Origin: Bilabrum cf. latius
Taxonomy: Eukaryota
Assembly: GCA_965178125.1 (NCBI GenBank)
Contig: OZ237736.1
Location: forward strand, 992,001-1,056,000
Direction of reading: 5' to 3'
DNA: 64,000 bases
Shown: in pieces, positions 3,115 to 51,467 of the stretch
How the letters are laid out: every line of letters starts with the position of its first letter
Position numbering within the stretch: the stretch's first letter is position 1
The notes under the pieces: generated by a model
The model's input: the letters and a program-made list of their open reading frames with translations, nothing else
Told to the model about the DNA's origin: nothing
Databases searched by the model: none
Made by a program: the position numbers and the translations under genes

Positions 3115-6100
3115 ATGCATGCCAGAATAGGCATGATATGCCCTCTCCTTGCAATCGTGGGATCGATATGCTTCGGGGTTTTGAATTTCAAGGACGGCTT
3201 TTTCCTCTCGCGCACTGAGTTGCCGTTGGCCTCCCATTGCGAAGACCTAAGGGATTCTGGACACGCAGAGCTGAAAATGGTAGAATCACAGCGGAATTCA
3301 CAGTGCTGGGGCAAGCCACGCTTCAAAAAGCTCGTGTTACTTTTGGTGGATGCTCTCAGATACGATTTCGTTCGAGACATCGTCAGCGAGCCCCATGACA
3401 GCGAGGAGGGATTTCCCTCTATACTTCGTGAAAATGACCCTCAGTCTAAGCTGCACCCGTACGAATCACCAGTAGACTCGCAATCTCCAGGAAAACTTCG
3501 TGGCAGTGCTCAGGCTGACGAAGGCAGTAGCACCAGAAACAGCCAGCAGACGGAGTATCACAACCATATGCCCCGGCTGCAAAAGATTCTGAAGGAGTAG
3601 TATCCGAATGGGAGAATACGACTGCATCGATTCGAAGCGGATCCGCCAACGGTCACGATGCAAAGGCTCAAGGGTTTGACGGCCGGCTCGCTGCCCACCT
3701 TCATCGATGCATCGGACAACTTTGCTTCGCCTGCTATTCGCGAGGACAACTGGCTTACTCAAGCCATGAAGGCTGGTCGTAGAGTACTCATGGTAGGCGA
3801 CGACACATGGGCCCGGTTGTTCCCTGGGCTGAGCCAGAGCGACGATGCCACCACCTCGCGGTGCTTCCAGTTGGGTTCACCGGGGCAAGAGGGAAGGAAC
3901 TCATCAGGGGGGCATTCAAGCTGCTTTCCGAGCGCCGAGTCGTTTCCTTTGCCCTCGTTCAATGTGTTTGATTTGCACTCGGTGGATGACGGCGTCATGC
4001 ACCTGATGGTGCCTGCGATGAAGGACGGTGCCTGCGGCGTGGCCCGCGCTGCCTAGAAGCACGGTGTGCGCAAATGGCACGGCGAATCTCTGGACGGGGC
4101 GAAGGGAATCTATGCCAGCGATCCTACTGCAGATGCCTTGTAGGCTGACGGTGCCATTCTCGAAAATTGCTAGCGCGATGCGACAACCGAAGGCTCCCAT
4201 GGACCAGGGTACGATATCATCATTGGACACACTCTTGGCGTCGACCATGTGGGCCATAGGTTCGGACCTGCGCACGACACAATGCGAAGGAAGCAGCTGC
4301 AGACGGACCGCATGATTGAAGACGTCTGGCAGCACCTGGATGATGATTCCTTGCTCGTGGTGATGGGCGACCACGGGATGACACAGGGAGGAAACCACGG
4401 CGGGGCAGACGAGGAGGAGCGGGCGGCTGCAATGATCATGGCCGCAAAGAAACCGTTATATTACGCGCCTTTACTGCGAGGGGCGGGCTGCGGTCAGTCC
4501 CAGGGCGTGCAGGAGCTGTTTGCAGGGGCGGGGCGTGGGGCCGGTCAGGACACCTGCGTAGAAAGCAAAGATGCGGACACGGGCGAGGGGCTGGCCATTC
4601 GCGCTGCAGATCCGAGCAGTTTGGTATTGGATCACGGGGGCAGGAACGGTTCGTCGTCAAGCTCCCACACGAGGCGCTGGCACGTCGATCTGCTCGGAGA
4701 AAAGGCTGCAGCATCGGTGCACGGCCACTGTCACCATCACCATGTACACAATCACGGCCATAGCACTGCGACTGAGCCCAGCAAGATGGAATCATGGCTT
4801 GGTCTGGCTGATTCGGTCGTGTAGCAAGTTGATCTTACGCCGACATTGTCCATGTTGCTAGGACTGCCCTCCCCGCACGGCTCCGTGGGCCAGGTAGTGC
4901 CTGGCCTGCTTTGGGATGATTCGGTTGCTCGCCGGCTGGCCGACCTTGCAGAGCACGGTAAGCACATGGCCGAATCCTCCAACTCTCTGGATGCTGCATG
5001 CCAGGCTTGCAACCAGGCCAGGGTCTAGGCCCACGAGCAGGAGCTCCATCGCCTGCTTGCCAACGAGTTCTAGGTGCGGAGGTTTCTCATGCAGTACGGT
5101 GAAGTCGCTCCATCTTTCACCGCGTTTTCCGATCTAGAGTCGATGCACGTCGATGCGGTGTCTATGTCCATCGATACAATTGGATCCGTGGCAGCCAGGG
5201 ACAATTTGCTCGAGCCGTTGAGAGGTTTGCGACGCTATCTGGCTCGAGCCCTTGACAAGTGCCGCGAGGCATGGACCCAATTCGATGTAGCGCTGATGCG
5301 TTCGTCTTCACTGCTGAGCGGGTTTGGCCTATTGGCTGCCATGGGTACCGCGGCAGTTTTATCGTAGACCAAGAATAGCTGGGAAGTGAGCAGTTTGGGT
5401 GTATTGGTTGCAGCAACTGTTGGCGCGGCAGTCTCAGTCGTGTATTCTCCTGTTGACTGGCTGGCTGCATGCCTCTAGCTCCATAGCATGATCGTTTCCT
5501 TCGGAGTCCCAGTGTTGCAGCCAAGCCTGTAGGATCTAGAGGTATACATGGAGCGCTTGGCAGACGGGTGTAGAGATTCGTTGGAGGCATCTGTGGCTGG
5601 AGGGATAAGGCGAATACTGCTGCCGTGCGGGAGCCCACCTCGGGGAGAAAGCCAAGGCTTGCTGGACATACTTGATGTAATTCTAGCATCACCACAGCTC
5701 GCAATTGTGTGCGCTGCTCTAATTCCAATGGCTGTGGTCGGTGTGCGAGCTGTGGTGCGCTCCGCAGTTGCTATTACTACCGCAAGCCTAGGCAGCTTTG
5801 CTCGCCCTAGTCCGACGCTGTCCAGGCGGAACCTGCTGGACGTTGGTGCCTAGATTGGTGCTGGAGCCACCATGACTTTGCTAGCTCTATGTGAGTATGC
5901 GCGACGAGCTTGGGCGTTCGAGGCCATCGGATTTGCCATGCTGTTTGCCAGGGTAGGAGGCGCTGTTAGCAACGGGCTAGTAGAATCCGAGGCAGAGGGC
6001 ACTCTTTACGCGCTGGGGTTCGGCGTTGTTTGTGTATACGTCGTAGGGAGCGTGTCGGCCGGTGCCACCCCGTTTGACTTTCGGGTATTGCGAGTGATAC

Positions 6101-7903: not shown

Positions 7904-9859
7904 TCACTGGCGCCCCCCATCGCTCGATTCTGCATCGATCTAACCACCCTCAGCCTGTTCAGCGTCACCTGACCTCTGCGCCATTCGCTTCCTCCTCCTT
8001 CTCAGCGACCGCCTCCTGCTAAACACGGGGTCTAAGGGAGACCCAAGGGCCTGTGCCGCCAGGATCCCACGTGCTAGCGCTGCATCATCCGGTGTGACCA
8101 GGCTCGAAACCCTCCCTTGCTGACCGAGCCTGCCCGTGCGACCAACTCTGTGCAAGAAGGACACGGCAGATGATGCAAAGTCCAGCTAGATCACATGGCC
8201 AACCTCGGTGGTGTCCAGCCCTCGGGCGGCAATGTCCGTGCACACGAGCACTTTGAGGTCGCCTTGCAGGAACCGCGCCATCGCCGCCTGCCTTCGAGCC
8301 GCCCCGATCTTCTTATGAAGCACAGCCACCGACAGATGGGGAGCACTCGACCGAATCTGCCGCAGCGCAGCGTTGGCTGATGCCACCGTGTTGCAAAACA
8401 CCAGGGTTTGGGGCATTCCCGCTGTATCGAGCTGCGTCAGTGCGGTGGTCTCATGCACCAGCTTGGTCGCCTTCAAATGAACCTCTATCTCAGTCGGATT
8501 CGACCCATGCCTGACTTTCCCCTTCTTTTTCCGCCTCGCATCCGCACGTACTGATGGAAGCACGATTTCTTCTGACAGCCTCAATATCTCGTCCCTATCA
8601 ATACTCTGTCCTTGCTCAGTGCTTGGTGGCGCTGTGGCTGGGTCACTAGTGGTCCCCACCACCGTACCATCCGCGGCAGATCGGTTTTCTGAGTCGCTAA
8701 TCAGTGCTGTGATTTGGCCCCCTAGCGCTGGGCTGATGCTGGGTTTGCCGTCGACCAGCCCGATGGGGTCATCGCTCGTCGCAGTAAGGAGGGCAGGCAG
8801 CAGGCGCAGCTTTGCCGCCTAGATGCAGTCGTGTCTCTCTGCCAAGAGCGCCTCTCTCTGGGCCATGAGCGCCAGGGGATCGATCCCCGCCGGCATGATA
8901 CCATCCTCCAGCTCTGCATGGGCATCGGCCTGCTCGTCGGGGCCGCTCCCGTGTGGCGGCTGCGCGTTGGCGGTACCCGCCACTATCCTGAGTGCCCTCT
9001 CGTCCCCAAACAGGGCCTCGTCCACTTCAATTGCACAGTACTTGTGCGCTGTCCGCTCCGACATGGAGTGCTGCAGTCCGGTCTGCACCCACGTGGCGTC
9101 GGGGAAGTTGCCCTGAATGAACGAGGTCGCGCTGGAGCTTCCCGCGTCCGGCACAGTCGCACCACAGAACACTGTTTGTAGAATCTGGTTTCGGGCCTTC
9201 GCTGATTTGCTGCTGCGGCTATGCCGGCCTTTCACGAGCCATTCGGTGACATCATCCGAGTACTCGCCCGTCAACAGGAGGTCGGCTTCGTCCAAGACCA
9301 CAGTGCGGAGCAAGCGCAGCCGAGACTGCGAGATGTTTTCGCGCAAGGCTTTCGGCGTAGCCACAAGAAGCGAGCACAAGTCTTTAGGGCGCGGACCAAC
9401 GGCCCCGTACGTTGGTCGAATCGCTTCGGTCATCCACGGAAAGCACTGCTGAGCAACTGCTGTGACTTGAAGTACAAGTTCCTAGGTTGGTACCAGCACA
9501 AGTGCGCTCGGTTTGTATAGATCCACTACATCAAGTCTCTTCAGCATGTCTACGATTGGGGCAATGTATGCCACCGTCTTGCCAGAACCAGTCTCCGATG
9601 CTAGCACTGTGTTCCCGCCTTTCAGAATTGCAGGAATCCCAGACTTCTGAATCAAAGTTGGCCTCGCTAGTCCAACAGCTGTCAGTGAATCGCATACATC
9701 TTTTGATAGACCAAGGCTAGAAAATGCTGTGCCAGGTTCAGCGAACAGCGTGGTGTTCGGCGTCTGGCACGCACGTTCAGAAGACCCATGGAAGCCCCTC
9801 CGTGCGCACCATGTCATTGGCAGCAGGCGTAGTCGGTGGAATCTAGTCATTTTGCGCAT
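7904..9859 (-). CDS. DEAD-box RNA helicase, probably organelle-targeted (DDX28-like); 4 in-frame TAGs
   Basis: Q motif PTLIQ, SETGSGKT, PT*EL, LDEAD, TDIAARGLD and HRVGRTGR all in one frame. TAGs at 9482, 8819, 8186 and 7940. TGA at 7904-7906. Arg-rich N-terminus. Confidence 0.9.
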
Positions 9860-18918: not shown

Positions 18919-18950
<32 letters not shown>

Positions 18951-19478
18951 GCTGAGTCACCAGCACTGCGTAGGGCGGGTCATGATGTGGGCATAACCAG
19001 GAGGGGGCTTTCTAGTGCAGCGAAGCGAAGGCGAGCATCTGTGTCTCGATTGGGGGAGGGCCAGCGTCTGGGGCAGCAGCGAAGTGGGGGTCGGGCAGAG
19101 TCCGTGCCTCGGCTGGTGTGGCGGGGTGAAGCTGCGGGTGCCGGCGGGCTTGGAAGTGGCGTGGCAGAGTCACGAGACGGCGTGACGCCTCGAGGGGTGC
19201 ACATGGGGCATGGGCCCGGGGGTGCAGGTGCAGTGCACGGCGACGCGTCTAGCATAGAGAGCAGCAGGGCGAGCACGCCTTCCGTTGCGGCCCGGCGGCG
19301 TGCGATGGCACCGCGTCCAGGCCGGTCGCCGAGCGCTGCACCACGGCTGCTTGCAGCAGTCACGCCTGGAGGCTCGAGGTTCGGTATACAGGCCAGACGG
19401 CCAGACAGCCGCGCTGCACCGCGCATCCGGAGGGTCAAGGTAGAGGTAGAGCATTCGCCTGGGTTTGGAGAATTTTGA
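10005..19478 (+). CDS. Very large (about 3000 aa) low-complexity protein with a p25-alpha/TPPP-like segment; predicted introns 10024-10099, 10243-10337 and 10479-10565
   Basis: ORF-track fragments from 10569 to 19478 share one frame and are separated only by TAG (more than 25). I saw no TAA or TGA until TGA at 19476. The three 5' GT-AG introns are phase-compatible. RVTTGDIDTVF...FLEAAARLARRRY resembles p25-alpha helices. Confidence 0.72.
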
Positions 19479-20855: not shown

Positions 20856-21379
20856 GGCTGTAAACGATCTTGATATGTGATTCGTGTGGCGTGGCGTCGC
20901 AACTTTTAGTCGCGCCAGAGACAAACTATTCTCCTCTCGTCGCCCCTTATTGGGGTCATTGCTTGGAAAGTTCCCGGAAAGGCACAGAAGCGAGCAGAGG
21001 AAAACTGAGCTTGTGGCAAATCCTAGGCACCAATGCATAAATAGCATATGCTGGCTTCAAATTGACATAATACGAAAGTCCTGACTGGATCACCTGGGGT
21101 CACTTCGAAGGTTGATGCGAGCTGGCGTCCTTGCTGATGAGCACGACGAAGGCACCCGAGCAGGTGGGTAGTTTCACGCCTCTAGTACTCGGTCAAACCG
21201 AGGAGGTCCACGAATCTACCCAATCATTGGCTGGTACGTTCATCTGGATTGCAGCGATGTCCCATTAGGCAAGCCTGTGGCTGCTTGTGTCGTCCCTTGT
21301 TGGACACCCCGACATCAATTTTCCTCCCCATTGAGACCATGGGTCTACCCATCAAGACTATCAAATGATCGTAGACCAG

Positions 21380-22533: not shown

Positions 22534-23887
22534 TCATCCGGGGGCGCCCGCGTACGCCGGATACTTTGCAAGCAGCGTGAGTCGCCGTCCGAGAGCTGCA
22601 AAGTACTTTTCGACCTCAACGCCCTCCCAGTGCCTCCTGCCCGGCGGGAGAACCTCCCGGAACGTTCGCTCAGCCTCGTCCATGAGGCCCCTCTCCTTCT
22701 CCGTCAGCGGCGAATCGCCCGTCGCGATCGCCAGGTTGATCCTCCACAGCTCCATCGAGGCGGATGAGACCATGACGGTCGAGACGTCACCGCGCCCCAG
22801 GCTCCACGCCATCGCCAGGCGGCCCAGGCTGACACCCTCCTTGGCGCACTTCGCTGCGAATGTGGCGGCCGTTGCCTTGATCTCGTCCGTGGCAGGGTGC
22901 CAGTCCGGCGGGCTCCCGTTGGTGAGCAGTCCCATGGAGATGGGCGCGGCGTTGATGACACCGATGCCTCTGGACCGGAGGTAGGCGAGCGTGCCAGAGC
23001 TGGAGAGGCTGTCGTCGAGCAGGGTGTAGCGGCAGTAGGAAATGCACGTGGAGAGCTTCACCGGCGATTTCTCGGCTAATTCGCGGAGCACGTGCATGGG
23101 GTATCCGGTGATGCCGATGCGACGCACCTTGCCCGCCTTCCTGGCCTCCTCCAGGGCTGGCAGCGTCTCGTGCAAGACGATGTCCAGGCTCGGCGCGAAC
23201 TCGGGGTCGTGGACCTGGATGAGGTCGAGATACTCAACTCCAAGGTGCTTAAGGCTTTCGTCGATGGAGGCGAGCACGCGCTCCTTCCTGAAATCGAACA
23301 TGTGCTCCACCTCCGGCTTGTAGCGGCCGACCTTCGTGTGGATGTAGTACGCCTCTCGAGGAATGCCCTTCAGAGCCTTGCCAAGAACCTGCTCGCTCTT
23401 GGTATCGCCGTACCACGGTGCCGTGTCAATAATATTCAAGCCTTTCGATAGCATCTCGGCCACGATTTTGGCGCACTCTGATTCATCAGCCTGCTCAAAT
23501 CAAAGGTAGTGAACATCAGCATTCAGCCGCTTTCGGGCGCGAGCTTCTTCGTCAGCATGAACAGATAGCAGTAAATGCATAGTATTAGTTCCAGTCTCGG
23601 CATGGACCATAGCGTCGACCACGAGCGGAAAAGCAGGCAGTTGCAGTTGGATCCGAACCGGAACCAAGAGCGCGCGACCTTACATCACCGAACACGCTCC
23701 CAAATGCGGATGCACCCAGTGCAAGACATGAAACAAAGCGATCGTCCAACCTCCTGTACCGCATTTTGCGGACTGCGTCCTCATCATGAAAGCCCTTCAC
23801 GAATGTCTCTGGCAACGCGTCACAAGGAAGAATCTCAATGTCAGTGCTTTCCTTCGTGGCCGAGTCTTCGACTCCTACTGCCGCCAT
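22534..23887 (-). CDS. Aldo-keto reductase, L-galactose/D-arabinose dehydrogenase-like; intron 23491-23683
   Basis: LGASAFGSVFGD|ADE, IDTAPWYG, TKVGRY, LDLIQVHD, GKVRRIGITGYP, NAAPISMGLLT. TGA stop. No TAG. Confidence 0.9.
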
Positions 23888-24041: not shown

Positions 24042-27000
24042 TCACTGCTGGCTCAAAGAGCTGAGCAAGCCCCGCCAGACCCTTGCCTCCTCGTCCCAGA
24101 CACCCGTGCAGCACCTCAGGTACACCCGCCTCGTCCTGTGCACCTCGTGGTACACCACCGTGTCGGGAGCTGGGCTGCGCGCCTCCTCCTGGTCCGCGGC
24201 ACCAGGAGCAGACGATGCAGCAGCCGAGGCAGACCTAGCACCACCCTTGCGAGCAAGTGCTTCTGCTCGCTTCAGCTGCTCCAGCGCCGCCTCAACGCCA
24301 GCGGCGACGGCGGACGAGGGGTGCACTCGGGCTTGCACCCCGGACCTTCGAACGACGAACGAAACGCTTGACTGGGCCGTGGGCACAACCGCCGCTGCCG
24401 GCGTCTCTTCCCCCGCCCTGGCCCCACTGCTGCTCCTGCTGCTAGCACCCGCCGTCATCTGCTCCGATGCCTGCAGAGCGCCCTACCCCGCACCTTCCCT
24501 TCTCGCCTGTGTCAGGGGCGAGCCGGCCAGCAGCGCCATGCGCAGGAGCCCCACTGCAGTGCGATGCTTCTAGACATCGGCACTGCCATGGCCGACCGCA
24601 TCTGCTTGCTTGCCGGAGCTTCCAGCTGCTGCCGTGTCCTCTGCAGCAGCCGCCGCAGCCTCGAGCTCCCGTGCCCTCGCCAGACCCACAGAGACCAGCC
24701 TCACGTCAGGCACTGCCTGCCGTCCCCTTGCCCCTCCGCTCGCGCTCGGTTTGCTCCTGCTTGCACCGGGCTCGATGATTTGGCCGTCCTCGGCCACGAG
24801 GCCGGTGGGCAGCAGCCCCACGCTCTGCACAGCCGCCGCATCTCCGGCTCCGGCTGCCTGGGTGGCTGGTTCGGCTGCAGAGCTGGAAGCCTTCTCTACC
24901 GCAGCAACTCCTTCTGCGCCCGCGCCCGCGTCTGCACTCAACCCCGCAGCTCCCACCTCGACCGTGCCGATGCCAGCCTCCCTGCAGAGCCCAAGCACCT
25001 GCCCGAAGACCCGCTGCGCCGACCGCATCGCTCGGGCAGACAGCCCGTGACGGTCGCACCATCCGACCAGCTTGGTCCAAGCCGAGGAGCTCTGCGACGC
25101 GCCTTTCCTCGGAGACTTGGATCGCGCCCACTTGGCAATGCTGCCGCCATGCCCCTGCCCCTGCCCCTGCCCCTGCCCCTGCCCCTGCCCCTGCCCCTTC
25201 CCCTTGCCGCTGCCTTGTTTGCCGTCGTCAAAGGCGCTCTCACCCATGGCAGACCGAAGCGCCGCCATCTTGCGCCGCTTGTCCTTGGCCGACATCCCGC
25301 CGCCGCCGCTGCTGCTGCTGCTGCTGCTGCTGCTTGCAGCCTCCGAGCTCACCCCCTTACCCTTGCCCTTGGCGCCCCCACTCCGCCTGGACCTCGCGTC
25401 GGCCAGCAAGAACGCACCGAAGGCTCTCAGGTACGTGAGGTGGTCGCTCGACGGCACCCTGAACCCGGCCTGACGAGCCGCGATCGCCCTCGCCTGCCCG
25501 TCCGTGGCGGTGTCGAGCTACCGAAACACGGGAGTGTCAGCCGACAGAAGCGCCACGATCGCGGCACCCTCCGCCGTGGCACCGACGGCAGCGAATGTTA
25601 GCAGCATGGCGGATAAGGGCGGGTCCAGGGGCAGTCTGGCCATGAGCTGGCCCCTGGTGGACAAGCCGCCGAGCCAGGCGCTCGACCCAGCGCTTCCTGC
25701 CGCCGCACTGCTCGGCAATGCCAGCAGCGGGAGCAGCCGAGGGTGATACGATCCGCCGGCAGTCTGGCCGCTGCTGCCACCCGCCTCCCTTGCCGCGCCG
25801 CCGCCCTCGCGGATGGCACCCAGCCTGGACAGCTCCCAGAGCCCCTCGGCCACCGCATCCCTGGGCGGGGCCTCCACCCATGGGAAGGACAGCACGTGCG
25901 ACGCAGGCACGCCTGAGGCGATCAGCCGCAGCAGCAAGCCAGCCAGGGGTGCCCTCAGTGCCTCGCACGGCTAGAAGTCGGGCAGCATGGAGAAGCACTA
26001 CTCGGGGTACAGGCGCATGCACACCCCCGGGCCCGTCCTGCCTGCCCGGCCAGACCGCTGCCTGGCCTGTGCCTTGGACTCGGGTCTTGGCAGCAGCGAG
26101 GCCACCCCGGGCTGGGTGGGGTCCCTGTCCCTGAGCTTCGTGACACCCGCGTCGACCACCGCCCTCACGCCGTCGATGGTCACCGAGGTCTCCGCGATGG
26201 TGGTGGCGAGGACGACTTTGCGCACGGCGGCGAGCGAGCGGCCTGCCTCCTTCTCCAGCTGCGCAAGCGACTCGGCGTAGTCGCTCTAGGCCGGGCTCAG
26301 AGAGACACCCTCGGGGAGCTCTAGCAGCGGCTTGAAGGCGAGTAGCTGCTGTGAGGGCGGCAGGGCGGCGTATAGAGGCAGGGCCACGGGCAGCGGGCAG
26401 CCCACCGGGATGGACACTTCACTGTCGTCCCCATCCGCCACAGAATGCCCGTCGTCGGTGCCTCGACCGCGCTTGCGCTTGCTGCCAGCGGCCGCCTGTG
26501 GCCTCGCTCCGCCGTCTCCTGTGACTTGCCCTTGCCCACCCGTAGAATCGTCCTGCCACTCGCGCACCACCTGATCGGCCGCCTCCTCCAGGGCTGCCTT
26601 GGCCTCCCTGATCTCGTCCTGGCCGGGCAGGAACACCAGCAGAGACTGCCTGTCTCCAGCGGCAGATGCGGGGCCTGCGCCCGGCTAACCCGAGGACTCT
26701 GCCCTCCACATCTTGACGTGCATGGTGACGGCGGCCCGCACAGCTTCCCTCACGTAGTCCCTGCAGGGGTGCTCCAAGTACAGCACGCTCACGGGGTGCT
26801 GGCGCGAAGGCACTACGAGCAGGCTGGGGGCCGGCGGGTCGTCCTTGTCGTCCTCCCGGCTGTCACTCTTCCTTGCCAGACTCGCAGCACCCTTGCCGCC
26901 ATCTGCCTATGCCCCCGATACCTGGCCCTTGGGTCTCCTCAGCCGTGCACTGGCCTGCCGTGTGCTCGGCCACAAGGCAGCAGGCAGTGATATCGGCCCT

Positions 27001-28596: not shown

Positions 28597-29917
28597 ATGG
28601 CAGCAAACAATCAAAGCAGCTCAGTGAGCCCGTAATGATCTTATTGTTATCATGTGACCCATCGACTCCGGCACAATCTCTGTTCTCGTCCTTCTAGCCA
28701 TTCTCTGCAGATCCCTTGGGTTACAGCTGGTATCGTGGCTGCCGCTGCAGCATGCTCGCTTGCTTCCATTCTGAGCCAAAGCGCCTTCGACGCACTTGTT
28801 CTTGTGCCATATAAGTGAGCCAGTGCAAGCTCTGGAAGCTGTGCTGCCCCCGTTCTTGCAGCCAGTTTACACGAGCAGCCCTGCCTTTTGGTCTTCTCTA
28901 TGCAAGCCGCAGGTCCTACGCAATCTGGACGTTAGCAACCAGCCAGTTTGTTGAAGCTAGTGCGCTGAAAGTAAGGGCGTCTTTCCGTTATTCTTGTTTT
29001 CGCGCTAGCTCGCGAACACGATCAACCGAGCTTGGCTGTCTCTCTACCAAACCCGCTCGCAGGTAGCTCTTTCGTTGCCAGTCTTATTTTTGCTCGGAAG
29101 GATAGCCGAGAAGCACCAAGGAATGCAGAATCTAGGGATCTTGCTCATGCAGAGCGTCGGGGTGTCGTCGATCGTAGCCGCTGCGATTGAGCTCGTCAAC
29201 TTCGGGATCACCCGAGATGTTGACAGCCTCTTCGTAGCAGTCCACGGTACTGCTGGCTTGTGTGCAGCGCTGTGTGTTGCGGCCTTCCAAGCTGAGCCCG
29301 AGGAAGTCGTGGGTGCCGGTATTCGCGTGAAAGACACACCCGTGCTCCTCCTGGTTGTGCTCGCTTTTGCCAGCCTCGCCGGCTTGTCTCGGGATTTGGC
29401 CTTCCTTCTCGTCGGATTTGCCTCGACGTGGTTTTACCTGAGGTACTTTGCACCCGCGGATGACGGCCGGTTCGGCGACCCCACCGATGCCTTTGCGTTC
29501 GAGAAGCTGTGGCCGGAGCCGGTGCGACCGGCCCTCCGAGCAGCTGCTCGGATGTGCGCGGGGGCGTGCATCCGACTGCCTTGCTTCCGAGGTCAGCCGC
29601 AGGCGCCCACCGCGGGGACTGGAGGTGCCCCGCACGGCGGAAACGCGACGGTGGGCGGCATGGACGGCCGGAGCGGCGGCACCGGGGGGGCGGCGGCTGA
29701 CCCAATGGACGATCCCGTGGCGCAGCGGCGCCGCGACGTGGCGATGAAGGCGCTGAATTAGAGGCTGGCAGATATCGAACAGCGGAGGAAGGCTAGGAAT
29801 CAGCAAGTGAAGAACGCGCTGACCATGGCGGACGGGAGGCGATAGGGTGGTACAGCTGCGGGCGGGGCAGGTGCTAGTCGGGCAGACGGCGGGGCTGGTG
29901 GTGGCAATGGGGTGTGA
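28597..29917 (+). CDS. TMEM115: TMEM115-like (rhomboid-superfamily) Golgi membrane protein, 3 predicted introns
   Basis: Spliced IPWVT...LVPY...WTLATSQFVE, WFYLRYF, GDPTDAFAF, WPEPVRP, RRRDVAMKALN*RL. Reads through TAGs at 29759 and 29843 to TGA at 29915. Confidence 0.8.
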
Positions 29918-32263: not shown

Positions 32264-34652
32264 TCACAGCCCCTTCGCGATCTCGCGCTTAGACTTGAGC
32301 TCTCCGGGCACTGTCGCGGACTCTGGCCGGTCGCTCAGGGGACCTCCACGCACCTCCTCGAGGGCCGCTCGCAAGTCCCGAAGCGAGTCCTCGATGCAAT
32401 CCAAGAACTTGTCGTTGCCCAGGCCGTACGACGCCACGTGGAACTGCACGCCGCGCTCGTCGTTCCCGTACCCAATGCCGTAGCTCGTACGCGACACGGG
32501 CCCGAAGCCGCCGCCATCGAGGGCCGGCGAGCTCAGCGTGCTCGTGCTCATCCGAATGTCTCCCATCTTGGCGTAGGACGAGTCCTCGAAGATGGCGGGC
32601 ATGGGGATCCCCTGCAGCTCGGCGTGCTTGCGCAAGGCGAAGAGGTGCCTATCCACGCCCTTGCCCATGAGCGCCAGCCTGCTCGTCTTGGAGTGCGTCG
32701 CGACGGCGGCCTCCAGCGCTTCCACCCTCTCCTTGGCGCTCGTGCTCGCGTCACCGAAGCACCGCACCATGGCTGCGGCCTCGGGGGACGCGCTGCGGAT
32801 CGTCTCGGTCCTGCCGTGCTTAAACCCCGCCGTGGAGGCGGACTCGTAGGTGGAGGGGACGTACCCGTGGGCCTTGTAGTGGGCCAGCTGCAGCACCATC
32901 TGCATGATTCCGTCGGGCGACAGCTTGGCCTGCTTGATGTCCTCCTTGGTCAGTGAAGGCGTCCTGTACACGTCGATGTCGCACTCTCCCATGATCCTAT
33001 CGTGGTCCTTTTCGGCCTTGGCGATGGCACCCAGCACGTCCTGAGGGAGGCTGTCGAAGTCCACCCGGCGCACCACTTTGCCCAGGTCTGCGGGCACCTC
33101 GGACTTGGGCCTGGCGGGCTCCTTGGTGGTTGCATCGTGCACCTCGTTGAAGAAGTTCAGCACCGCCACGCCGTCGCCCCACGCGTGCTCCCAGGCGATC
33201 CCGGACCGCCCGTTCTCGCACACGATCAGGTTGAACGACTTGTCGAACCATCGGTTCCTTCCCTTGCCAGCCAGCATGCACTCGCTCAAATCCTCGTGGG
33301 TGTCAGGAGACGCATCGTCCAGGGATAGGGCGAAGAGGGCCCCATCGATCTCCTGAAGGCTCGCTCGAGCTGCAGGGTCCTTGTCCATCGAGGCCCTGGC
33401 GGCGCCCCACTCGTCACGATGCATTGTGGTCAGGGCCGCCACGGGCGGCCCGGGCTTTCTGGACGCAGCGTCTGCCTTGATCGCCCTGATCTGGGCCTCG
33501 ATGGCGGCGGCGGGCAGCGGCCGAAGGTTCTCAGGCTTGCCCGTGCCCCGCTCCGCGATGCCGAGCGCTCGGGCGGGGGTGTCCTCATTGGCTTTGGCAT
33601 CCTCGAACAACTGCAGCTTGTAGGCGTGCGTGCCCACGAACACGGCGGCGTACGCATCGTGCTCCACGGACCTCAGCTCGTCCCTGCCTTGCGCCACGGG
33701 GATGCGGGTGGAGCAGAAGAGGCGGTCGTACTGGGACATGTCGAGCGGGTAGGCGCCCGCGGCGTAGGCGGCGTAGTAAGAGACCTTGGTGGGGAGGGCA
33801 GCCGTGACATTCTCAAAGACAGGGTTCTTGGAGATCTCCGGCTTGGTGTGGAAGACGTCGGGAAGTAGCGTGCGGTTCTGGTACGAGACGTAGAACCGAG
33901 CAGCTGCTCGGCAAAGGTCTGCGGCTCGTACGGCCTGCTCGTTCTTGGCAGGATCCGCATGAAGCTTCCATGATAACTATGGAGTCAAGTTTAGCGGGAA
34001 AGCGTCTCGGTTGTCTAGATACATGTCGTACCAGAACCCTGCAATGTACGACGTCTCAGGATGCTCCTTGTCCCAGGCAAGTAGCGCTTCGTGCAGCTTC
34101 GGGCCTTCATTGGATGCAAATGAATCAACAGCTGCTTCCGTCTTCTCGTACTCGCTATCATCAACAATGGCCCGCACGAATTTCTTGTACCTGCGAAGGA
34201 GTTGGATCGCGCACGAAGTAGAAGATTGTCTCTTTTTTTTAAATAATTTTGTCCGTCGTTGGGCTCGGCCTCGATACGACAACAAGTTTACTTACTGCTT
34301 AAGCGTATCATCCAGTTCGGGGATAGGGAGCTTGGGCATGGAATCCTAGAAATGCAGAGTTGGGATCGTGGAGCGGTGCAGATGAGGGTCGGCCGCATCA
34401 GTCACAGCGCCGGACATGCCACCAAAGAATCGAGCCCGACCACCGGCTGATAGATAGACTTTCTTAGCAACAACGCCCTGCGAAAACTGACATGGGAGCT
34501 GCAATGATTCGCAGAACGAGATGTTCAGTACTCCGGCAAAAAGATGTTGCGGGCGCAGCATCGATCGCATGACTTGGCGAGCGAAGTCTGGTCCCGCTCA
34601 CACGAGAAGCTTGCATAATTCCGCGCATAATCCTTGCAGAGGCTCGCTGCAT
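32264..34652 (-). CDS. CPT2: Carnitine O-palmitoyltransferase 2-like acyltransferase; intron about 34191-34293; start uncertain (34652 or 34570)
   Basis: PTLHF*DSMPKLPIP, FWYDMYL, PLDMSQY, NRWFDKSF, EHAWGDG, TYESAST, GRTETIR, GVDRHLFAL, GGFGPV. TGA stop. Confidence 0.9.
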
Positions 34653-34787: not shown

Positions 34788-36835
34788 TCACGACCCATAA
34801 CCCAGTGAAAGCTCTCGGATGTCCTCTGGACGCCCCGTGACCCCAACTTGGAACCTCTCTGGCGATGCTGGGTCGTACTGGCTCTTCACGAGCGCGCTGA
34901 GGCTCTTCACGAGAGCTGCGTGCCTGGGGTCCCCCGCTTCGTTCTTGCTCTCCCTGCTCCCGATCAAAACCAGGTCGTCGCCTTGGTGGTCGTACAGCTC
35001 GCGCCCGTATACCCCGCTCTCCGTCCAGTCAGCCTCCAGCAGAGTCCCGTTGAACTTCCTCCACTCAATCAGGTGCCAGTCGCGCGTACGAACTGCGTAG
35101 CCCATCCACCGAATCAGCGACCGGTCCACTTTGGTGCACATGTCCGCGCCGCCCTTCCACGCCGGCACCACGCCCTGCTCGCTGCACCTCGCGTACTGAG
35201 AGAACACGGCCTGCCGCATGGTCCGGCTCGGGGTCAGCCCCGGCTGGGCCAGCAGGGGGCTCTGGTCGATTCCCTCGGCCCCCGGCATGCCGCTGGTGGG
35301 CAAACCGGCGAGCCCCTGCATCGTCGGGAACAAATCAACGGCGTGGTACATTGCAGAGGATCGGATGCCGTGCGACTGCGGCAGCCAGGGGACGGAGAAC
35401 ACGGCTGGGATCCTGGTGGAGGCTTCCCATAACGTGTGCTTGCCCAGCGTCGAGTGGTCACCAAGCTGCGAGCGGTTGAGAGACGATGCGAGTGAGAGCG
35501 AGGGAGGGGGGATGAGACAATGGCATAGGGGACGAGCATGCAGCGATCGGAAGGGAGCAATTCAGTGCAGAACGATCATGCTACTGGGAGGAGCCAGGCA
35601 GGGCCAGACACGGCTGCCATGTCATTTGCATCGCCATGAGCGCAAAACCCTCCCACTCACCTGGTACCCGTGATCCGCAGAGAACACAACGGCCGTGTCA
35701 TTCTCCAAGCCAAGCTCGTGCAAGGCATCCAGCACCTCGCCGACGAATCGATCCACGAGAGTTACGGCGGAAAAGTAGTGCTGCCTCAGCCTCATGCGCT
35801 CAGAAGGCGGGATCGGCGTGGTCGGTGTCCCGACGGGCCACCGCTCCCCCGTGGTTGCGTTGCACACCTCCGTCGCGCCGTCGAACTCATTCGTGAACGC
35901 AATATCCACGAGTGGCTCTGGGGCTAGCGGCGAAGGGGTGTCATTGAACGCAGACCCGTCGGGTGGGTACATGTCCGAGATGGCATAGGGCACCTGATAG
36001 GCCCCGTGGGGCCGGACGAAACCGACCCCGAGGAAGAAGGGCTTCCCCTGCTGCTTGGCGTACTTTAGATTCCGGACGATTCGCTCCTTCTGAAACCAGT
36101 CCCCAAACGCAGAGTAGCCGTCTGCGGGCATGGACGTGTTGAGCGGCTGCGAACACGCGGGGACGGACGAGCCGTTGCAGGAGTGCGGCTGGCGCTGGCA
36201 GCCGGTCCACACCGGCCACTCGTAGGGCAGGGTCATGCTCCAGCTGAGAGGGGCGTCCCCGTTGAATGCTGGATCAGGATGATACAGCTTGCCAACATTC
36301 AGAGAAAGGTAGTTCTGTTGCTTGAATGCCTGCGGACCCGACACGACTCGCCTACCGCCGGGTGTGGCATTCCTGAAGTTGTCAATGAAGTTGTACACCT
36401 TGATGGAATCTGGGTAGCGACCTGCAGTAATCAATGTAAATTCAAGTTCTTATGGCTGGCTAAAAAGCAGACTGGTTTGGCCGGATCGATTCAGTGCCGC
36501 ATACTCACTCGACATAAACGAGTTGCGAGACTATGCACAAATCGCGTACTGGGTGTATCCCAGCCCAAACGTGAATCCTCTCTGAGCGAGCCTATCCAGG
36601 TTGGGAGTATGCATGTACGATTGCCTGTAGGCCCAGTTCAGCGCTGGTCTCTGGTCATCCGACAGTATCTGCGAGGTGATGAGGAAAGGAGCTGTGCGGC
36701 GACCATACCATGGAGGCACAACGACTGTCATTACAATGATTGGAGCTTACTCACCAAAAGGACGTTCCTTGGTTTTGCATGCGTAAACGCGGCCACCAGC
36801 GCACAAAGCGTCATTGCTGGAGTAGTGGCGCGCAT
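34788..36835 (-). CDS. Secreted sulfatase, iduronate-2-sulfatase-like (3 introns)
   Basis: Signal peptide, NVLL|ILSDDQRP, TPNLDRLA, CA*SR, GKLYH, FFLGVGFVRPH, SADHGYQ|LGDH, DLFPT, ELYDH. TGA stop. Confidence 0.85.
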
Positions 36836-44327: not shown

Positions 44328-45989
44328 ATGCCTGATTTGACGAAGCAGCGATAGCCGGTGCTAAATGCGACAAATATGCGTAGCTTGTGGACGCCTCCGA
44401 GCCTTTATCACGATTGGAATGAGGATTATGAGGAACGATCGTCGGCGTGGTGGGAACTCTTTGTGGACCTCTAGCTGGTCGCAGCATGCACGAATATCGC
44501 TGACGGCTTCAAGGAAGATGCCACTGCAGCTGGGCTGGGCAGGTTCTTGCTGCAAATCTTTACGTTTCAGACGGCCTGGTATGGATATGTGGCCCACACT
44601 TCGAGGTTCAAAGATATGTCATTGGCGCATTCAGCCCTTCTGCTATTATACCTTGGCGGTACTTCAAGCATGGTAATATACTCTAGTGGTTTTGGGGCAG
44701 TTGAGCTGCGAGGATACACAATCGGTATGCTTGTACAGCGAGGGGCACTTGCGATCATGTACCTGAACGTGGCATTCCACATCGCTAGGGCGAGATACTT
44801 TGCCTCGTTCGTAGTCCTCCAGCTTGGGATTCAGATTGTTTTCCTCTTGGTTGCATCTGCTGTGCATTTGGAATCAGGAGGTACCGACAACACAACAGGG
44901 TCGCGCGGAGACGGCAGCGGCACAGTGTTGTGGCTATGGGCTGCGGCCGTGATCGCCGAGCGCATGTCTTTCCCGGTTTTGTCGTGCTTCCTTGGCCGTT
45001 CATTGGTTCCAATCAACATTGACCATTTCGCCGACCGGGAGGGCGCCTTCGTGATGGTTGTCCTCGGCGAGTCGGTTCTCTCGGAGGCGATCAGCTACAG
45101 GCAGCTCTCAGACAGTTCCAAGCGGGGCTACGAGTACATCATCGGGGCCATCATCGGCTTCATCATGACGTTCTCACTCGCTCTCATGTACTTTCACGTG
45201 CAGCCAGAGCGCAAGCAGCACGCCTACAGGCTAAGCAGGGCCCGCGGGCTCTCGATGATCCAGACACACATGCTGCTGACCGCCGCCTTGCTGGCTCTAG
45301 GTACGGGTACTAAGCTGGCCATGGCCGCCGTGTCGGGGAACTCGGAAGGGGGAGGAGGAGACAATACCGAGCGCCACAGCGCGTCGCAAATGTCGTACAC
45401 GCAGGTGTGGGTGCTGCACGGGTCCCTTGCTTGCGTGTTGGTGCTGCTCATGGTTGTCAGGCTGCTGCACTACGGGGGCATCGAGCCCAAGTCAACGGAC
45501 TGTGACGGAGTCTGGCGCCTCAAGATGTGGTGGTGGGGCGTTCTGGGGGTGTGGTGGGTGCTTCCACTAGTGGCAGCTGCCTGTCTCGTGGCTGCCGACT
45601 CGGGCGGGGATGGGGTGCCCCCCCTGCAGTCGCTTGGCATATGTTCAGGTCTGACGGTTGCGGTCATGTTGATCGAGACTTCGCTGACGCACTGCCTGCA
45701 GGAGGTGGCCAAAGAGGACATGGGCAGGCGGGTGGCCGCACTGGTTGGCCAAAGTCACGATGGTGGAGTGGGTGGTATCACTCGACAAGGTAGCAAGCAG
45801 GTGCTGCAAGCGGGCAGCAATGATGGTACACCTGGCGGAAAATTGAACGGAGTGTCTCGCCCGACCGTGGGTGAGGGGGACGAGGCAGCAGCACTGATCA
45901 GCCAGCCTACTGGCAGTGAGGCAGCCGTCAGCCTACAGGTCGGAACAGTCGGTGCGGGTTACGGGAGCCTGCAAGGCATTCCGTCTTGA
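44328..45989 (+). CDS. Low-temperature-requirement A (LtrA)-like multi-pass membrane protein
   Basis: WWELFVDL*LVAA and PINIDHFADREGAFVMVVLGESV. Many TM helices. TAGs at 44352 and 44472. TGA stop. Confidence 0.8.
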
Positions 45990-46128: not shown

Positions 46129-46669
46129 TCAGACAAAACCTCCAGTTTGAGCAATGGTGGCATCAATCTGATCCCCATCCTCAATCTGCAAAAATGAGAG
46201 GCAGGAGAATGCAGAAAGATAATGAACATAACGCTGCTGTGCCCGCTCTACTTGCAATCGGTGACTGTCAATCGGAGCCCCTTACGCCCTTGCTCTTCAG
46301 CGCCTCATCATCTTCCACCTGCGGGACTAGCATTAGTGGGATGTACTAGGATGTAAACAGTAAGAAAGTTGCGTAGTTCAGGATACGCACGGATTGCTTT
46401 AAAACGACTGACCACCTCTCCCTCCACAGTGAATGCAATCGCACCCTGCTCGACTCCCTATGCCTTGCTGAAAGCTGCCTTTAGCTTTCCGAACGTCATT
46501 GTGGGCTTCACCTGGGAGATCAAAGATTGGACGGGAGGATAACTTCTAGCAGGATCTGCAGGCTAGAACAGGGGTCGGGGGACATTTGACAAAGGTGCTT
46601 TTGCCTCACCTTGAACTGCACGGTGGAGCCGCTTGCTGCCTTCACAGAAATGAGAATTTTCTCGGCCAT
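46129..46669 (-). CDS. SUMO: SUMO-like ubiquitin-family modifier (4 exons)
   Basis: Spliced MAEKILISVK...VQFK|VKPTMTFGKLKAAFSKA*GV...|VEDDEALKSKG|IEDGDQIDATIAQTGGFV then TGA. Diglycine QTGG present. Missed by the ORF track. Confidence 0.85.
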
Positions 46670-49694: not shown

Positions 49695-51467
49695 ATGATT
49701 TCATTTGTTTCGTCGGTGCTGACAACTGCAGTGGCTCTAGTTGCAGTTGGAAGCGGGGCGATCCTAGCCCCGCCGAGCTTCCCGTGGTCAAACTCCAGGG
49801 GCGTAAACATACACTATACCTCCGGCGTGCCTGGGGAGACTAAAATGCTCGCTGAAGGGTTCGATGGGATCAGAATGGACCTGCACTGGGCAGAGGTCGA
49901 GACGGTCAAGGGCGTCTACAACTTCTCAGAATTTGACACTCTGGTTCAAGATCTCGAGAAGAATGGCTTGCAGACAAGGTACCTCATCCTAGACTACTCG
50001 AATGAGCTGTACTGCAAGGGCGGTGAAGCCCCGTAGACCCCAGAAGAGCGCTCCGCGTTCGCGAACTTCGCGGTTGCAGCTGCCAAGAGGTATAACAGCC
50101 AGGGAGTCGTCTTGGAGCTTTGGAACGGTGAGTATCGCTCGTTTGGTGATTTTAATAGCCTCATGAATGCCTCAATTTCGTAAATGCTGCTACGGGGACT
50201 CGCATCTCTCGCAGAACCGAACGGTGGCTTCTGGCTCAACTCGACTGGGGCTCACGCTCCAAACGCTACCCAGTATAGCGAGCTTCTTACCACCGTTGGA
50301 CAAGCCCTCGCAACACGTGCGCCAGGCACAGTCTTGACCGGGCCCACGACGGCTGGCATGGATTTCCCATACATCTAGCAGGTCCTGGAGCGCGGCGGGT
50401 TGGCCTACTTGTCCGGCGTGTCCGTGCACCCGTACCGGCCGTCTCCGCCTGAGAGCGCCTGCTATGACTACGCGACCCTGCGATCCATGATCGCGAATCA
50501 CTCTGCTGCCAGTGGCGGTGGTTGGTCAGGCGGCCCCTCGGGTGCTGCGTTTCCAAATGGCGACCCCTGGGTGGGGGCAGGCACCAGGGTGTCCCCCCCT
50601 ACCCCCGCGGGTGTTCCCCCGGTGCTATCATCGGAGTGGGGCTACACCACGTGCACCAAGCCGGCATCGTGCATCCCCGAGCAGTCCATCAGCATTTCTG
50701 AATCGCTCTAGGCGGCGTACCTCCAGCGGCGCTTCATAGCGGACGCGCTGTGCGGAGTGCCCATGTCCATTGACTACGACTGGCGGAACGGAGGTGATGA
50801 CCCGTCGCAGCGAGAGCAAAACTTCGGGGGAGTGCTGCACGACCCCACTGGCAACAGCTCGCAGCCGTTCGTTCCCAAGCCCAAGTTCCTCGCTGCCTCC
50901 GCCTACAAGTCGCTTGTGGGTAGCCTGCAGCTCCGTGGGAGGGTCGCTGCAGACGTCACAACTGCCGCCACCGGCTCGATGCAGGCCAGCGCGCCAGGCA
51001 GCCACGAGCCATCGAATGCCACATTTGTGGCGGAATTCGCTGGTCCTCCCCGCAGTCAAACCCAAACCCAATCCTCAACCCAAGCCCAATCCTCAACCCA
51101 AGCCCAAGCCCAATCCTCGTCCTCGCTCGTGTATGCGGCGTGGACGATGGGGAGTCAGGGCTATTGCGGCACGCTGCCCTCGCACCACGATTGCGGGTTC
51201 TTCGCTATCTCTGAGAAGGAGTGCGTGGAAGGTCGTGGGTGTTGCTACACCCCGAACCATGACGGCTTGCCGTGGTGCTAGTGGCCCATGGGTGGCGGCA
51301 GCGTGCAAGCGTCCTTCGACGTGGACGAGCAGGTGCCTCAGGGAGCGTGCTTCCAGCAGCGGTCCTGGAACGGCACTGCAGAGGGCAAAGTGTGCGCGGG
51401 GGGGTCGTCAGGCCGGCAGCTGTCGGTCGAACTGACCCGCATGCCTGTCTTTTTGTCTATGGATTGA
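49695..51467 (+). CDS. Secreted clan GH-A glycoside hydrolase (GH39/GH5-like) with a trefoil (P-type) module; intron about 50128-50214
   Basis: Signal peptide, GVNIH, IRMDLHW, ELWN|EPN, VSVHPY, SSEWGY, *AAYLQR, YDW, CGFFAISEKECVEGRGCCY...PWC. TAGs at 50034, 50376, 50709 and 51279. TGA stop. Confidence 0.8.

What the first reader, a model, noticed from the sequence alone, without database searches (positions are those of the whole stretch)
34320..34370. Conserved columns identify the amino acid as glutamine
TAG sits where homologues carry Gln. CPT2 PTLHF*DSMPKLPIP (family pattern PTxHxQxSLPxLPIP; TAG 34346). SUMO KAAFSKA*G (family RQG; 46458). PIGO ANEF*VRRFL (family NAxQV; 5071) and V*QVDL (4822). 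GH ESL*AAYLQR (50709). DEAD GHVI*LDF (8186). DEAH PDF*PCE (25971). TMEM115 ALN*RL. Family consensus is recalled from knowledge, not aligned here.
Basis: partly seen in the sequence, partly recalled or inferred. Interest (0 to 1): 0.9.

Follow-up and report, generated by a model that had tools for sequence, protein, structure and literature searches.

The report
In-frame TAG codons encode glutamine
This GC-rich eukaryote uses TAG, normally a stop signal, as an ordinary codon inside its genes, and comparison with related and distant proteins shows it most likely stands for glutamine, a rare but already known kind of genetic-code change.

Summary
On the minus strand, 34346-34348 is an in-frame TAG in exon 1 of a carnitine palmitoyltransferase-2 gene. 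It sits at the Gln of the conserved H-[FY]-Q-D-S-[LM]-P-x-L-P-[IV]-P motif.

TAG is a sense codon across the window. Reading it through lengthens the longest ORFs from 619 aa or less to as much as 2992 aa. There are 120 in-frame TAG in 16,512 codons. TAA and TGA stay out of frame. Seventeen of 18 ORFs end in TGA and one in TAA.

Gln is the best assignment:
- **Near relatives (80-96% identical):** they carry Q, Q, Q, Q, K, E, S at seven window TAG columns. Six of six relative PIGO fragments stop exactly at window TAGs.
- **A ~50% relative without in-frame TAG:** it has CAG at both CPT2 TAG columns.
- **Distant homologues:** a calibrated likelihood over 21 columns puts Q first, 7.4 nats ahead of Glu.

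Q is the commonest residue at about 5 of 21 columns, and several columns carry P, D/E, T/V or C/V instead.

The code matches the known UAG-only-to-Gln variant (Iotanema and some ciliates). This case is GC-rich and TGA-terminating, and its lineage is unidentified. No tRNA or eRF1 gene lies in the window, so the mechanism is inferred.

The parts
34346..34348 (-). In-frame TAG in CPT2 exon 1, at the Gln of the H-[FY]-Q-D-S-[LM]-P motif
   Evidence: sequence. Q in 6 of 6 PDB chains. CAA in L001. CAG in L002.
34296..34435 (-). CPT2 exon 1 (the part supported by alignment; the start codon was not determined)
   Evidence: 80% identical to L001 over 45 residues; aligns to rat CPT2 residues 24-57.
34191..34295 (-). 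Inferred spliceosomal intron (GT..AG, 105 nt) between CPT2 exons 1 and 2
   Evidence: Read from the sequence. Joining the exons gives ...DTLKQ/YKKF..., which parallels rat ...DTMKRY. L001 has a gap at the same place. Inferred; no read was laid here.
32264..34190 (-). CPT2 exon 2 up to its TGA stop
   Evidence: Pfam Carn_acyltransf, E 1.9e-151; rat CPT2, E 5e-114.
33977..33979 (-). Second in-frame TAG of CPT2 (LNLTP-X-LSW)
   Evidence: CAG in L001, flanks 100% identical. CAG in L002; rat CPT2 has F and ChAT has A.
46458..46460 (-). In-frame TAG in a SUMO-like exon (KAAFSKA-X-GV)
   Evidence: frame and coordinates; aligns to the Q of QRQGV in SUMO1.
5071..5073 (+). In-frame TAG in the PIGO-like GPI ethanolamine-phosphate transferase gene (ANEF-X-VRRFL)
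   Evidence: Q in 7 of 9.
4822..4824 (+). In-frame TAG in PIGO (SVV-X-QVDL)
   Evidence: Q in near relative P0305. P9 H8 S7 A3 Q2 in distant homologues.
8186..8188 (-). In-frame TAG in the DEAD-box helicase gene (GHVI-X-LDF)
   Evidence: Q in 80 of 143.
9482..9484 (-). In-frame TAG in the DEAD-box helicase gene at the P-T-x-E-L position
   Evidence: R64 Q22 K13 A12 V8 of 139.
25971..25973 (-). In-frame TAG in the DEAH-type helicase gene (PDF-X-PCE)
   Evidence: T36 V27 I12 S8 of 95. This is not a Gln column.
50709..50711 (+). In-frame TAG in a glycoside-hydrolase-like gene (SESL-X-AAYLQR)
   Evidence: Q in 5jvk_A, the only match.
44472..44474 (+). In-frame TAG in the LtrA-like gene (ELFVDL-X-LV); a column that argues against Gln
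   Evidence: C5 V4 A1 I1 in 11 bacterial LtrA homologues.
29759..29761 (+). In-frame TAG in the TMEM115-like gene (KALN-X-RL); untested
   Evidence: Pfam DUF1751; coordinates.

Best explanation
The window is nuclear DNA of a GC-rich (about 59%), intron-poor eukaryote whose code reads UAG as glutamine. UGA is the usual terminator and UAA a rare one, which corresponds to NCBI table 15 (number recalled, not from a call). What is shown: TAG is a frequent in-frame codon of real, conserved genes; it is shared at identical positions by a close relative; and where relatives or homologues do not have TAG, they most often have Gln. What is inferred from how other UAG-to-Gln lineages are described: decoding by a tRNA-Gln with anticodon CUA, which would not read UAA, together with a release factor eRF1 that no longer recognises UAG.
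For: (1) TAG is sense.
- The longest standard-code ORF is 619 aa. With TAG read through, ORFs reach 2992, 1769, 1694, 1405, 1138 and 988 aa.
- These ORFs carry Pfam families: carnitine acyltransferase, DEAD, Helicase_C, Phosphodiest, NT-C2, LtrA, Pkinase and dymeclin.
- In 20 ORF segments, in-frame TAG is 121, TAA 1 (at the intron junction) and TGA 0. The two other frames hold TAA 43 and 56, and TGA 249 and 327.

(2) The codon is shared with relatives.
- Six of six PIGO fragments of an 88-96%-identical relative end exactly at window TAG codons.
- Contig L001 (80% identical CPT2) shows the same ORF lengthening, 1547 aa against 607 aa.

(3) The meaning is Gln.
- Near relatives have Q, Q, K, E (PIGO), S (DEAD) and CAG, CAA (CPT2) at window TAG columns.
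- Log-likelihood from the same alignments: Q -16.3, K -24.0, E -30.9.
- L002 (~50% identical, no in-frame TAG in the aligned gene) has CAG at both CPT2 columns.
- P0303 (43% identical) has Q at 6253 within a conserved AW/GWR-[ED]-HA-Q-EG context.
- Distant homologues, 12 columns: Q -35.4, E -38.0, K -39.2, S -40.2, L -47.2.
- Distant homologues, 21 columns: Q -60.4, E -67.8.
- Calibration: 12 true-Gln columns are called Gln in 98% of 300 draws. Twelve columns of any other residue were called Gln in 0 of 300 draws each.

(4) RNA editing is unlikely. Run X6 shows two GT..AG joints and gene-sized pieces, so it is probably cDNA. Its contigs cover PIGO and DEAD with 0 differing letters.
Against: Gln is not the commonest residue at most TAG columns of distant homologues:
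- DEAH 25518: P in 27 of 27. The local alignment is ambiguous, because an X carries no mismatch penalty.
- DEAH 27966: D50 E43 of 119.
- DEAH 25998: W40 A27 R16.
- DEAH 25971: T36 V27.
- DEAD 9482: R64 against Q22.
- PIGO 7378: D5 E4 S3 (all).
- LtrA 44472: C5 V4 A1 I1 in bacteria.
- CPT2 33977: F in rat CPT2 and A in ChAT.
- Kinase and epimerase columns: P/D, P/A/K/S and G/K/K.

The mean Q fraction at TAG columns (0.165) is half that at CAG/CAA columns (0.321). Three of seven near-relative residues are not Q. The two TAG codons of L001 face H (CAC) and E (GAA) in the window. No tRNA, Rfam family or eRF1 gene is present in the window, L001 or L002, and there is no peptide evidence.
Confidence: 0.9

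Rival explanations
1. TAG is a sense codon for another amino acid, such as Glu, Lys, Ser or Leu. These meanings are reported elsewhere: UAG=Leu in a rhizarian and some ciliates, UAG=Ser in Scotinosphaera and UAG=Glu in one ciliate.
For: Near relatives show K, E and S at three TAG columns. Glu is second in the distant-homologue likelihood, only 2.6 nats behind on the 12 best columns. D/E dominate DEAH 27966.
Against: Combined deficits relative to Gln are large. Glu is 7.4 nats behind over 21 columns and 14.6 behind in near relatives. Lys is 9.9 and 7.7 behind. Ser is 11.9 and 18.2 behind. Leu is 20.4 behind over the distant columns. Four columns are Gln in conserved contexts: CPT2 34346 and 33977, DEAD 8186 and PIGO 5071. 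K, E and S are each one base change from TAG and are common replacements of Gln.
Confidence: 0.04
2. TAG has a dual meaning: Gln inside genes, but also a terminator in some contexts, as in ambiguous stop/sense codes.
For: This cannot be excluded from ORFs alone. Two ORFs have a TAG only 6 (EF-hand protein) and 11 (DEAD) codons before the TGA, and that TAG could in principle be the true stop.
Against: In the DEAD gene the near relative P0296 has Ser at that TAG and keeps the following residues up to the same end, so the tail is coding. In-frame TAG density (121) is as high as in the non-coding frames (123 and 155), so there is no sign of avoidance. All 18 ORFs have a TGA or TAA end.
Confidence: 0.05
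3. The TAGs are not translated at all: they come from pseudogenes, assembly errors, or RNA editing back to CAG.
For: None found.
Against: 120 TAG codons lie in 18 otherwise intact conserved genes. They sit at positions shared with an independently assembled relative. The same sequence is held by runs of six studies. The probable cDNA contigs of X6 are identical to the DNA across 20 TAG codons.
Confidence: 0.01

Closest known systems
UAG-only-to-Gln nuclear code of Iotanema spirale (Fornicata)
   Same: UAG encodes Gln while UAA and UGA remain terminators (PMC5304391, abstract read).
   Different: Iotanema uses UAA as its primary terminator (abstract). Here TGA ends 17 of 18 ORFs. The present organism is GC-rich and has a CPT2 gene. 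I did not establish its phylogenetic position.
UAG-to-Gln in the ciliates Hartmannula sinica, Trochilia petrani and Protocruzia tuzeti
   Same: UAG is reassigned alone to Gln, and the changes are independent (PMC11687900, abstract and Discussion passages read).
   Different: Those ciliates use UAA for 86.9-98.3% of stops (passage read). Here the preferred stop is TGA, and the window shows 64 kb of contiguous, intron-poor, GC-rich DNA.
UAR-to-Gln codes (many ciliates, Hexamita, Streblomastix, ulvophycean algae, Amoeboaphelidium)
   Same: A stop codon is reassigned to Gln.
   Different: In those codes TAA is also Gln (PMC11687900 Discussion; PMC5304391 Background). Here there is no in-frame TAA in 16,512 codons, against 43-56 in the other frames, and Arf ends in TAA.
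UAG-to-Leu (rhizarian exLh, some phyllopharyngean ciliates) and UAG-to-Ser (Scotinosphaera)
   Same: UAG alone is reassigned and UAA is kept as a stop.
   Different: The amino acid differs. Leu is 20.4 nats and Ser 11.9 nats worse than Gln over 21 columns.
Code 15 of crAss-like phages (TAG=Gln)
   Same: Same codon meaning (PMC9523058, search listing and start of abstract only).
   Different: Those are bacteriophage genomes. Here the genes are eukaryotic nuclear genes with spliceosomal introns.

Membership tests
UAG=Gln, UAA/UGA=stop nuclear code (NCBI table 15 type) | TAG occurs in frame inside conserved protein-coding genes | tested here: met
   120 TAG in 16,512 codons of ORFs with Pfam families. 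ORFs lengthen from 619 aa or less to as much as 2992 aa.
UAG=Gln, UAA/UGA=stop nuclear code (NCBI table 15 type) | Homologues carry Gln at TAG columns more than any other residue | tested here: met
   Likelihood puts Q first over 12 and over 21 columns. Near relatives show 4 Q of 7. L002 has CAG at 2 of 2 columns. Q is a plurality, not a majority.
UAG=Gln, UAA/UGA=stop nuclear code (NCBI table 15 type) | TAA is not a sense codon | tested here: met
   No in-frame TAA apart from the intron junction, against 43 and 56 in the other frames. Making TAA sense does not lengthen the ORFs (the longest stays 620). Arf ends in TAA.
UAG=Gln, UAA/UGA=stop nuclear code (NCBI table 15 type) | TGA is a terminator | tested here: met
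   17 of 18 complete ORFs end in TGA, and there are 0 in-frame TGA against 249 and 327 off frame.
UAG=Gln, UAA/UGA=stop nuclear code (NCBI table 15 type) | A tRNA-Gln with anticodon CUA is encoded | not testable with these tools
   No tRNA in the window, L001, L002 or L003. No Rfam match in the window, L001 or L002. No whole genome is held.
UAG=Gln, UAA/UGA=stop nuclear code (NCBI table 15 type) | eRF1 is altered so that UAG is not recognised | not testable with these tools
   No eRF1 gene among the window's ORFs.
UAG=Gln, UAA/UGA=stop nuclear code (NCBI table 15 type) | Peptides show Gln at UAG positions | not testable with these tools
   No proteomic data are available.
UAR=Gln code (NCBI table 6 type) | TAA as well as TAG is read as Gln | tested here: not met
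   as above.
Ambiguous stop/sense codes | The same codon also terminates some genes | tested here: inconclusive
   All ORFs end in TGA or TAA, and the TAG near the DEAD 3' end is followed by conserved coding sequence. True 3' ends were not mapped.

The most novel reading that the evidence does not exclude
An undescribed, GC-rich, compact-genome protist clade has independently reassigned UAG alone to glutamine and terminates almost only with UGA. Its PIGO-like protein is closest, at about 30% identity, to oomycete and diatom proteins among the named hits. At least three species-level members share the change: the window, a ~92% nucleotide-identity relative in algae and protist metagenome runs, and metagenome contig L001. 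A more distant relative, L002, shows no in-frame TAG in the one gene I compared. That would be a UAG-to-Gln origin outside ciliates and fornicates, and the first with UGA rather than UAA as the preferred stop.
Probability: 0.45. Interest if true: 0.65.

Novelty: new member of a known kind. Interest (0 to 1): 0.55.

Why it matters
Any standard-code annotation of this genome and its relatives is wrong. Public gene calls for the relative are already cut into fragments at every TAG, so its proteins are missed or truncated in databases. UAG-only reassignments are few: the papers read name Iotanema, three ciliates, one rhizarian and Scotinosphaera. They bear on whether the meanings of UAA and UAG can evolve separately. 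A GC-rich lineage that keeps UGA as its main stop would add an independent and compositionally different case. L002 offers a nearby outgroup that apparently uses the standard code, which could help date the change.

Tried and rejected
- **Whole genome:** none is held, so I could not scan for tRNA(CUA) or eRF1.
- **Reads laid on 2458-12457:** the relative in X9/X10 covers the stretch at about 92% identity. The table of differing letters was cut after 40 of 948 rows (up to position 3240), so no TAG codon could be read at DNA level there.
- **RNA runs:** no RNA holder is listed on record. That X6 is cDNA is my inference from GT..AG joints.
- **Taxonomy:** the ESM Atlas search on CPT2 gave only family names. 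The cluster look-up of top hits gave no organism names.
- **NT-C2 gene against L001:** only 26-34% identical, so I did not use its TAG columns.
- **PDB search for the SDR TAG column:** no match.
- **Kinase, epimerase and one GH column:** they fall at variable positions with 1-4 sequences each. I counted them only in the 21-column total.
not possible, because the scan returns no alignments.
- **Columns dropped:** 20 of the 32 TAG columns in PIGO, DEAH and DEAD had fewer than 5 homologues at posterior >=0.8 and were dropped.
- **Not tested:** TMEM115, dymeclin, MVK-like, coiled-coil, EF-hand and the 2992-aa ORF.
- **Literature searches:** none found a report of UAG=Gln in a GC-rich lineage outside ciliates and fornicates. 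Subscription journals are not covered and supplements were closed.
- **Excluded loci:** L029, from the unpublished genome G049, and the sub-threshold match L028 were left out of the LtrA tally.
Full report
**The observation**

The plus strand reads c-t-a at 34346-34348. On the minus strand this is an in-frame TAG within ...STIPTLHF-TAG-DSMPKLPIPELDDTLKQ. This piece is exon 1 of a carnitine acyltransferase gene. It is followed by a GT..AG interval at 34295-34191, which I read as a 105-nt intron (inferred from the sequence). After that comes a 675-codon ORF ending in TGA. That ORF matches Pfam Carn_acyltransf at E 1.9e-151 and rat CPT2 at E 5e-114.

**TAG is a sense codon throughout the window**

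- Under the standard code the longest stop-to-stop frame is 619 aa.
- With TAG read through, frames of 2992, 1769, 1694, 1405, 1138 and 988 aa appear.
- Making TAA sense instead lengthens nothing. Making TGA sense only produces many overlapping frames, as expected in GC-rich DNA.
- The long frames are real genes:
  - a PIGO-like GPI ethanolamine-phosphate transferase;
  - DEAD and DEAH helicases;
  - CPT2;
  - an NT-C2 protein;
  - an LtrA-like protein;
  - two glycoside-hydrolase-like proteins;
  - a TKL kinase and a GHMP kinase;
  - dymeclin/Hid1, TMEM115, an SDR and an epimerase;
  - Arf, an aldo-keto reductase and a sulfatase.
- Over 20 ORF segments there are 121 in-frame TAG, 1 TAA (the intron junction) and 0 TGA. 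The other two frames hold 43 and 56 TAA, and 249 and 327 TGA.
- The absence of in-frame TAA and TGA follows partly from how the ORFs were defined. Frames of up to 2992 codons without either show that it is real.
- Seventeen of 18 complete ORFs end in TGA, and Arf ends in TAA.
- TAG makes up 7.3 per 1000 codons, or 15% of Gln codons if it means Gln.

**Relatives share the codon**

- A search for shorter proteins found six fragments (P0304-P0307, P0309, P0310) that are 88-96% identical to the PIGO protein; five come from an 8147-nt contig and P0307 from a 1565-nt one. All six end exactly where the window has TAG, at columns 381, 533, 857, 1007, 1266 and 1641.
- The same relative, about 92% identical in DNA, is present in two runs: one coded only as organism E and one labelled as an algae metagenome.
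- A metagenome contig, L001, encodes a CPT2 that is 80% identical. Its ORFs also lengthen under TAG-sense, from 607 to 1547 aa.
- A third contig, L002, is about 50% identical and 67% GC. It shows no such lengthening and has no in-frame TAG in the aligned CPT2.

**Which amino acid: near relatives**

Where the relatives do not have TAG at a window TAG column, they have:
- Q at 4822 and Q at 5365;
- K at 7201 and E at 7249 (all PIGO);
- S at 7940 (DEAD, P0296);
- CAG at 33977 and CAA at 34346 (CPT2, L001, with flanks 100% and 90% identical).

I built a substitution table from the same 1825 aligned columns, which are 87.5% identical overall; the window's CAG/CAA Gln is conserved in 85% of cases. 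With it the seven residues give log-likelihoods of Q -16.3, K -24.0, E -30.9, R -32.4 and S -34.5.

If the six shared TAG are counted as conserved, 10 of 13 covered columns are unchanged, which is in line with ordinary Gln.

L002 has CAG at both CPT2 columns. P0303, which is 43% identical, has Q at 6253 in a conserved context, and K, S, G, A and G at five less conserved columns.

Conversely, the two TAG codons of L001's CPT2 face CAC (His) and GAA (Glu) in the window. At the His column, rat choline acetyltransferase has Q.

**Which amino acid: distant homologues**

I aligned the window proteins, with TAG written as X, to three homologue sets using phmmer:
- 45 PIGO homologues;
- 120 DEAH homologues;
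- 149 DEAD homologues.

I kept only columns with at least 5 homologues at posterior >=0.8. That left 12 of the 32 TAG columns.

| Gene and TAG position | Commonest residues | Homologues |
|---|---|---|
| PIGO 5071 | Q7 A1 P1 | 9 |
| DEAD 8186 | Q80 M19 N18 L16 E5 | 143 |
| DEAD 9482 | R64 Q22 K13 A12 V8 | 139 |
| PIGO 3598 | S2 Q1 K1 R1 E1 | 6 |
| DEAD 7940 | D E A Q R (one each) | 5 |
| PIGO 4822 | P9 H8 S7 A3 Q2 | 31 |
| PIGO 7378 | D5 E4 S3 A2 T2 | 21 |
| PIGO 5026 | S2 W2 L1 R1 | 6 |
| DEAH 27966 | D50 E43 S5 K5 N4 | 119 |
| DEAH 25998 | W40 A27 R16 S12 E5 | 119 |
| DEAH 25971 | T36 V27 I12 S8 N3 | 95 |
| DEAH 25518 | P27 | 27 |

I scored each column as one observation, against residue profiles learned from the 1264 non-TAG columns of the same alignments. 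The totals are Q -35.4, E -38.0, K -39.2, S -40.2, A -40.3, R -40.6, L -47.2 and Y -51.5.

Calibration:
- Twelve randomly drawn true-Gln columns are called Gln in 98% of 300 draws, with a median margin of 5.2 and a 5th percentile of 0.9. The observed margin is 2.6.
- Twelve columns of any other residue were called Gln in 0 of 300 draws each.

I then added nine more columns with few sequences:
- CPT2 34346: Q in 3 of 3.
- CPT2 33977: Q1 F1 A2.
- SUMO 46458: Q.
- GH 50709: Q.
- GH 50376: I.
- Kinase 52523: P, D.
- Epimerase 42666: P, A, K, S.
- Epimerase 42711: G, K, K.
- LtrA 44472: C5 V4 A1 I1, from 11 bacterial homologues fetched.

The 21-column totals are Q -60.4, E -67.8, A -69.8, K -70.3 and S -72.3. 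Q is the commonest residue at 5.2 of 21 columns, followed by P at 2.75 and D at 2.7. The mean Q fraction is 0.249.

**Results against the reading**

- Most TAG columns of distant homologues are not Gln-dominated.
- The DEAH column at 25518 is invariant Pro. The local alignment (F-R-X against F-Y-R-P) is ambiguous, and an X attracts conserved columns because it costs nothing.
- The LtrA column lies in a conserved hydrophobic motif, where Gln would be unusual.
- The Q fraction at TAG columns is half that at CAG/CAA columns. This may mean that TAG sits preferentially at less constrained Gln sites, or it may be sampling. I cannot tell which.

**Mechanism**

Nothing in the window bears on the decoding machinery:
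- ARAGORN found no tRNA in the window or in L001-L003.
- Rfam found nothing in the window, L001 or L002.
- No whole genome is held.

Decoding by a tRNA-Gln(CUA), together with an eRF1 that has lost UAG recognition, is inferred from what is described for other UAG-only lineages. [quoted passage not shown]

RNA editing is unlikely. Contigs of run X6 show two GT..AG joints (10064-10156 and 10478-10566) and break at gene ends, so they are probably cDNA. They match the DNA with 0 differing letters across PIGO and DEAD. The tool itself labels this run 'RNA? (probably DNA)', so this is weak evidence.

**Comparison with what is known**

- UAG alone reassigned to Gln, with UAA kept as a stop, is reported for Iotanema spirale (PMC5304391, abstract).
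- It is also reported for Hartmannula sinica, Trochilia petrani and Protocruzia tuzeti (PMC11687900, abstract and Discussion passages).
- In the phyllopharyngean ciliates studied in PMC11687900, UAA accounts for 86.9-98.3% of stops. In Iotanema, UAA is the primary terminator. Here TGA ends 17 of 18 ORFs.
- UAG=Leu (rhizarian exLh and some ciliates) and UAG=Ser (Scotinosphaera) are the other UAG-only variants named there. Both fit the data here much worse.
- Four literature searches found no report of this code in a GC-rich lineage outside ciliates and fornicates. The library lacks most subscription papers, and supplements were closed.

I could not name the organism. Among named hits, the PIGO-like protein is closest (about 30% identity) to Phytophthora, Thalassiosira and Triparma proteins and to a record whose name begins GSMAST. 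That is only a weak hint of stramenopile affinity.

**Verdict**

The codon and its context are as described, and the interpretation (TAG = Gln) is well supported. It rests on a plurality of Gln and on near relatives, not on Gln dominating every column. The code is a known kind. The lineage may be new.

Noticed in passing
window 34791-36449 (-): A sulfatase gene (Pfam Sulfatase, E 9e-15, in at least two ORF pieces) lies between CPT2 and the NT-C2 gene. In the relative's contig L001 the NT-C2 ORF ends about 350 nt before CPT2 exon 1, so this ~3 kb is absent there. The two pieces hold no TAG in 532 codons, where about 4 would be expected.
   Followed up: partly
window 10500-19475 (+), with joints at 10064-10156 and 10478-10566: A 2992-codon low-complexity ORF rich in Ser, Ala, Arg and Pro, with 30 in-frame TAG and no Pfam match. 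Two GT..AG joints in contigs of run X6 just upstream suggest that the gene starts before 10500 and has short introns.
   Followed up: no
window, all ORF ends: Terminator use is extremely skewed: TGA ends 17 of 18 complete ORFs and TAA ends one (Arf, 20018-20020). This is the opposite of the UAA preference reported for other UAG-reassigned eukaryotes.
   Followed up: partly
L001 5199-7148 and 4993-5127: The relative's CPT2 has its own two in-frame TAG codons at different columns. They face His (CAC, window 34091-34093) and Glu (GAA, 34316-34318). So TAG positions turn over between species that are 80% identical in protein.
   Followed up: partly
window 44472-44474 (+): A TAG sits inside the conserved E-L-F-x-D-L-x-[FL]-V motif of the LtrA-like protein, where 11 bacterial homologues have Cys, Val, Ala or Ile. 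A Gln there would be unusual for a membrane helix.
   Followed up: partly
window 20021-20905 (-), 22537-23499 (-): The Arf gene (split by an intron) and an aldo-keto reductase gene contain no TAG at all. The numbers are too small to tell whether highly expressed genes avoid TAG.
   Followed up: no
L002 (12338 nt, GC 0.675): A more distant CPT2-bearing metagenome contig, about 50% identical, shows no ORF lengthening under TAG-sense and has CAG at both window TAG columns. It may be a standard-code outgroup for dating the reassignment.
   Followed up: partly
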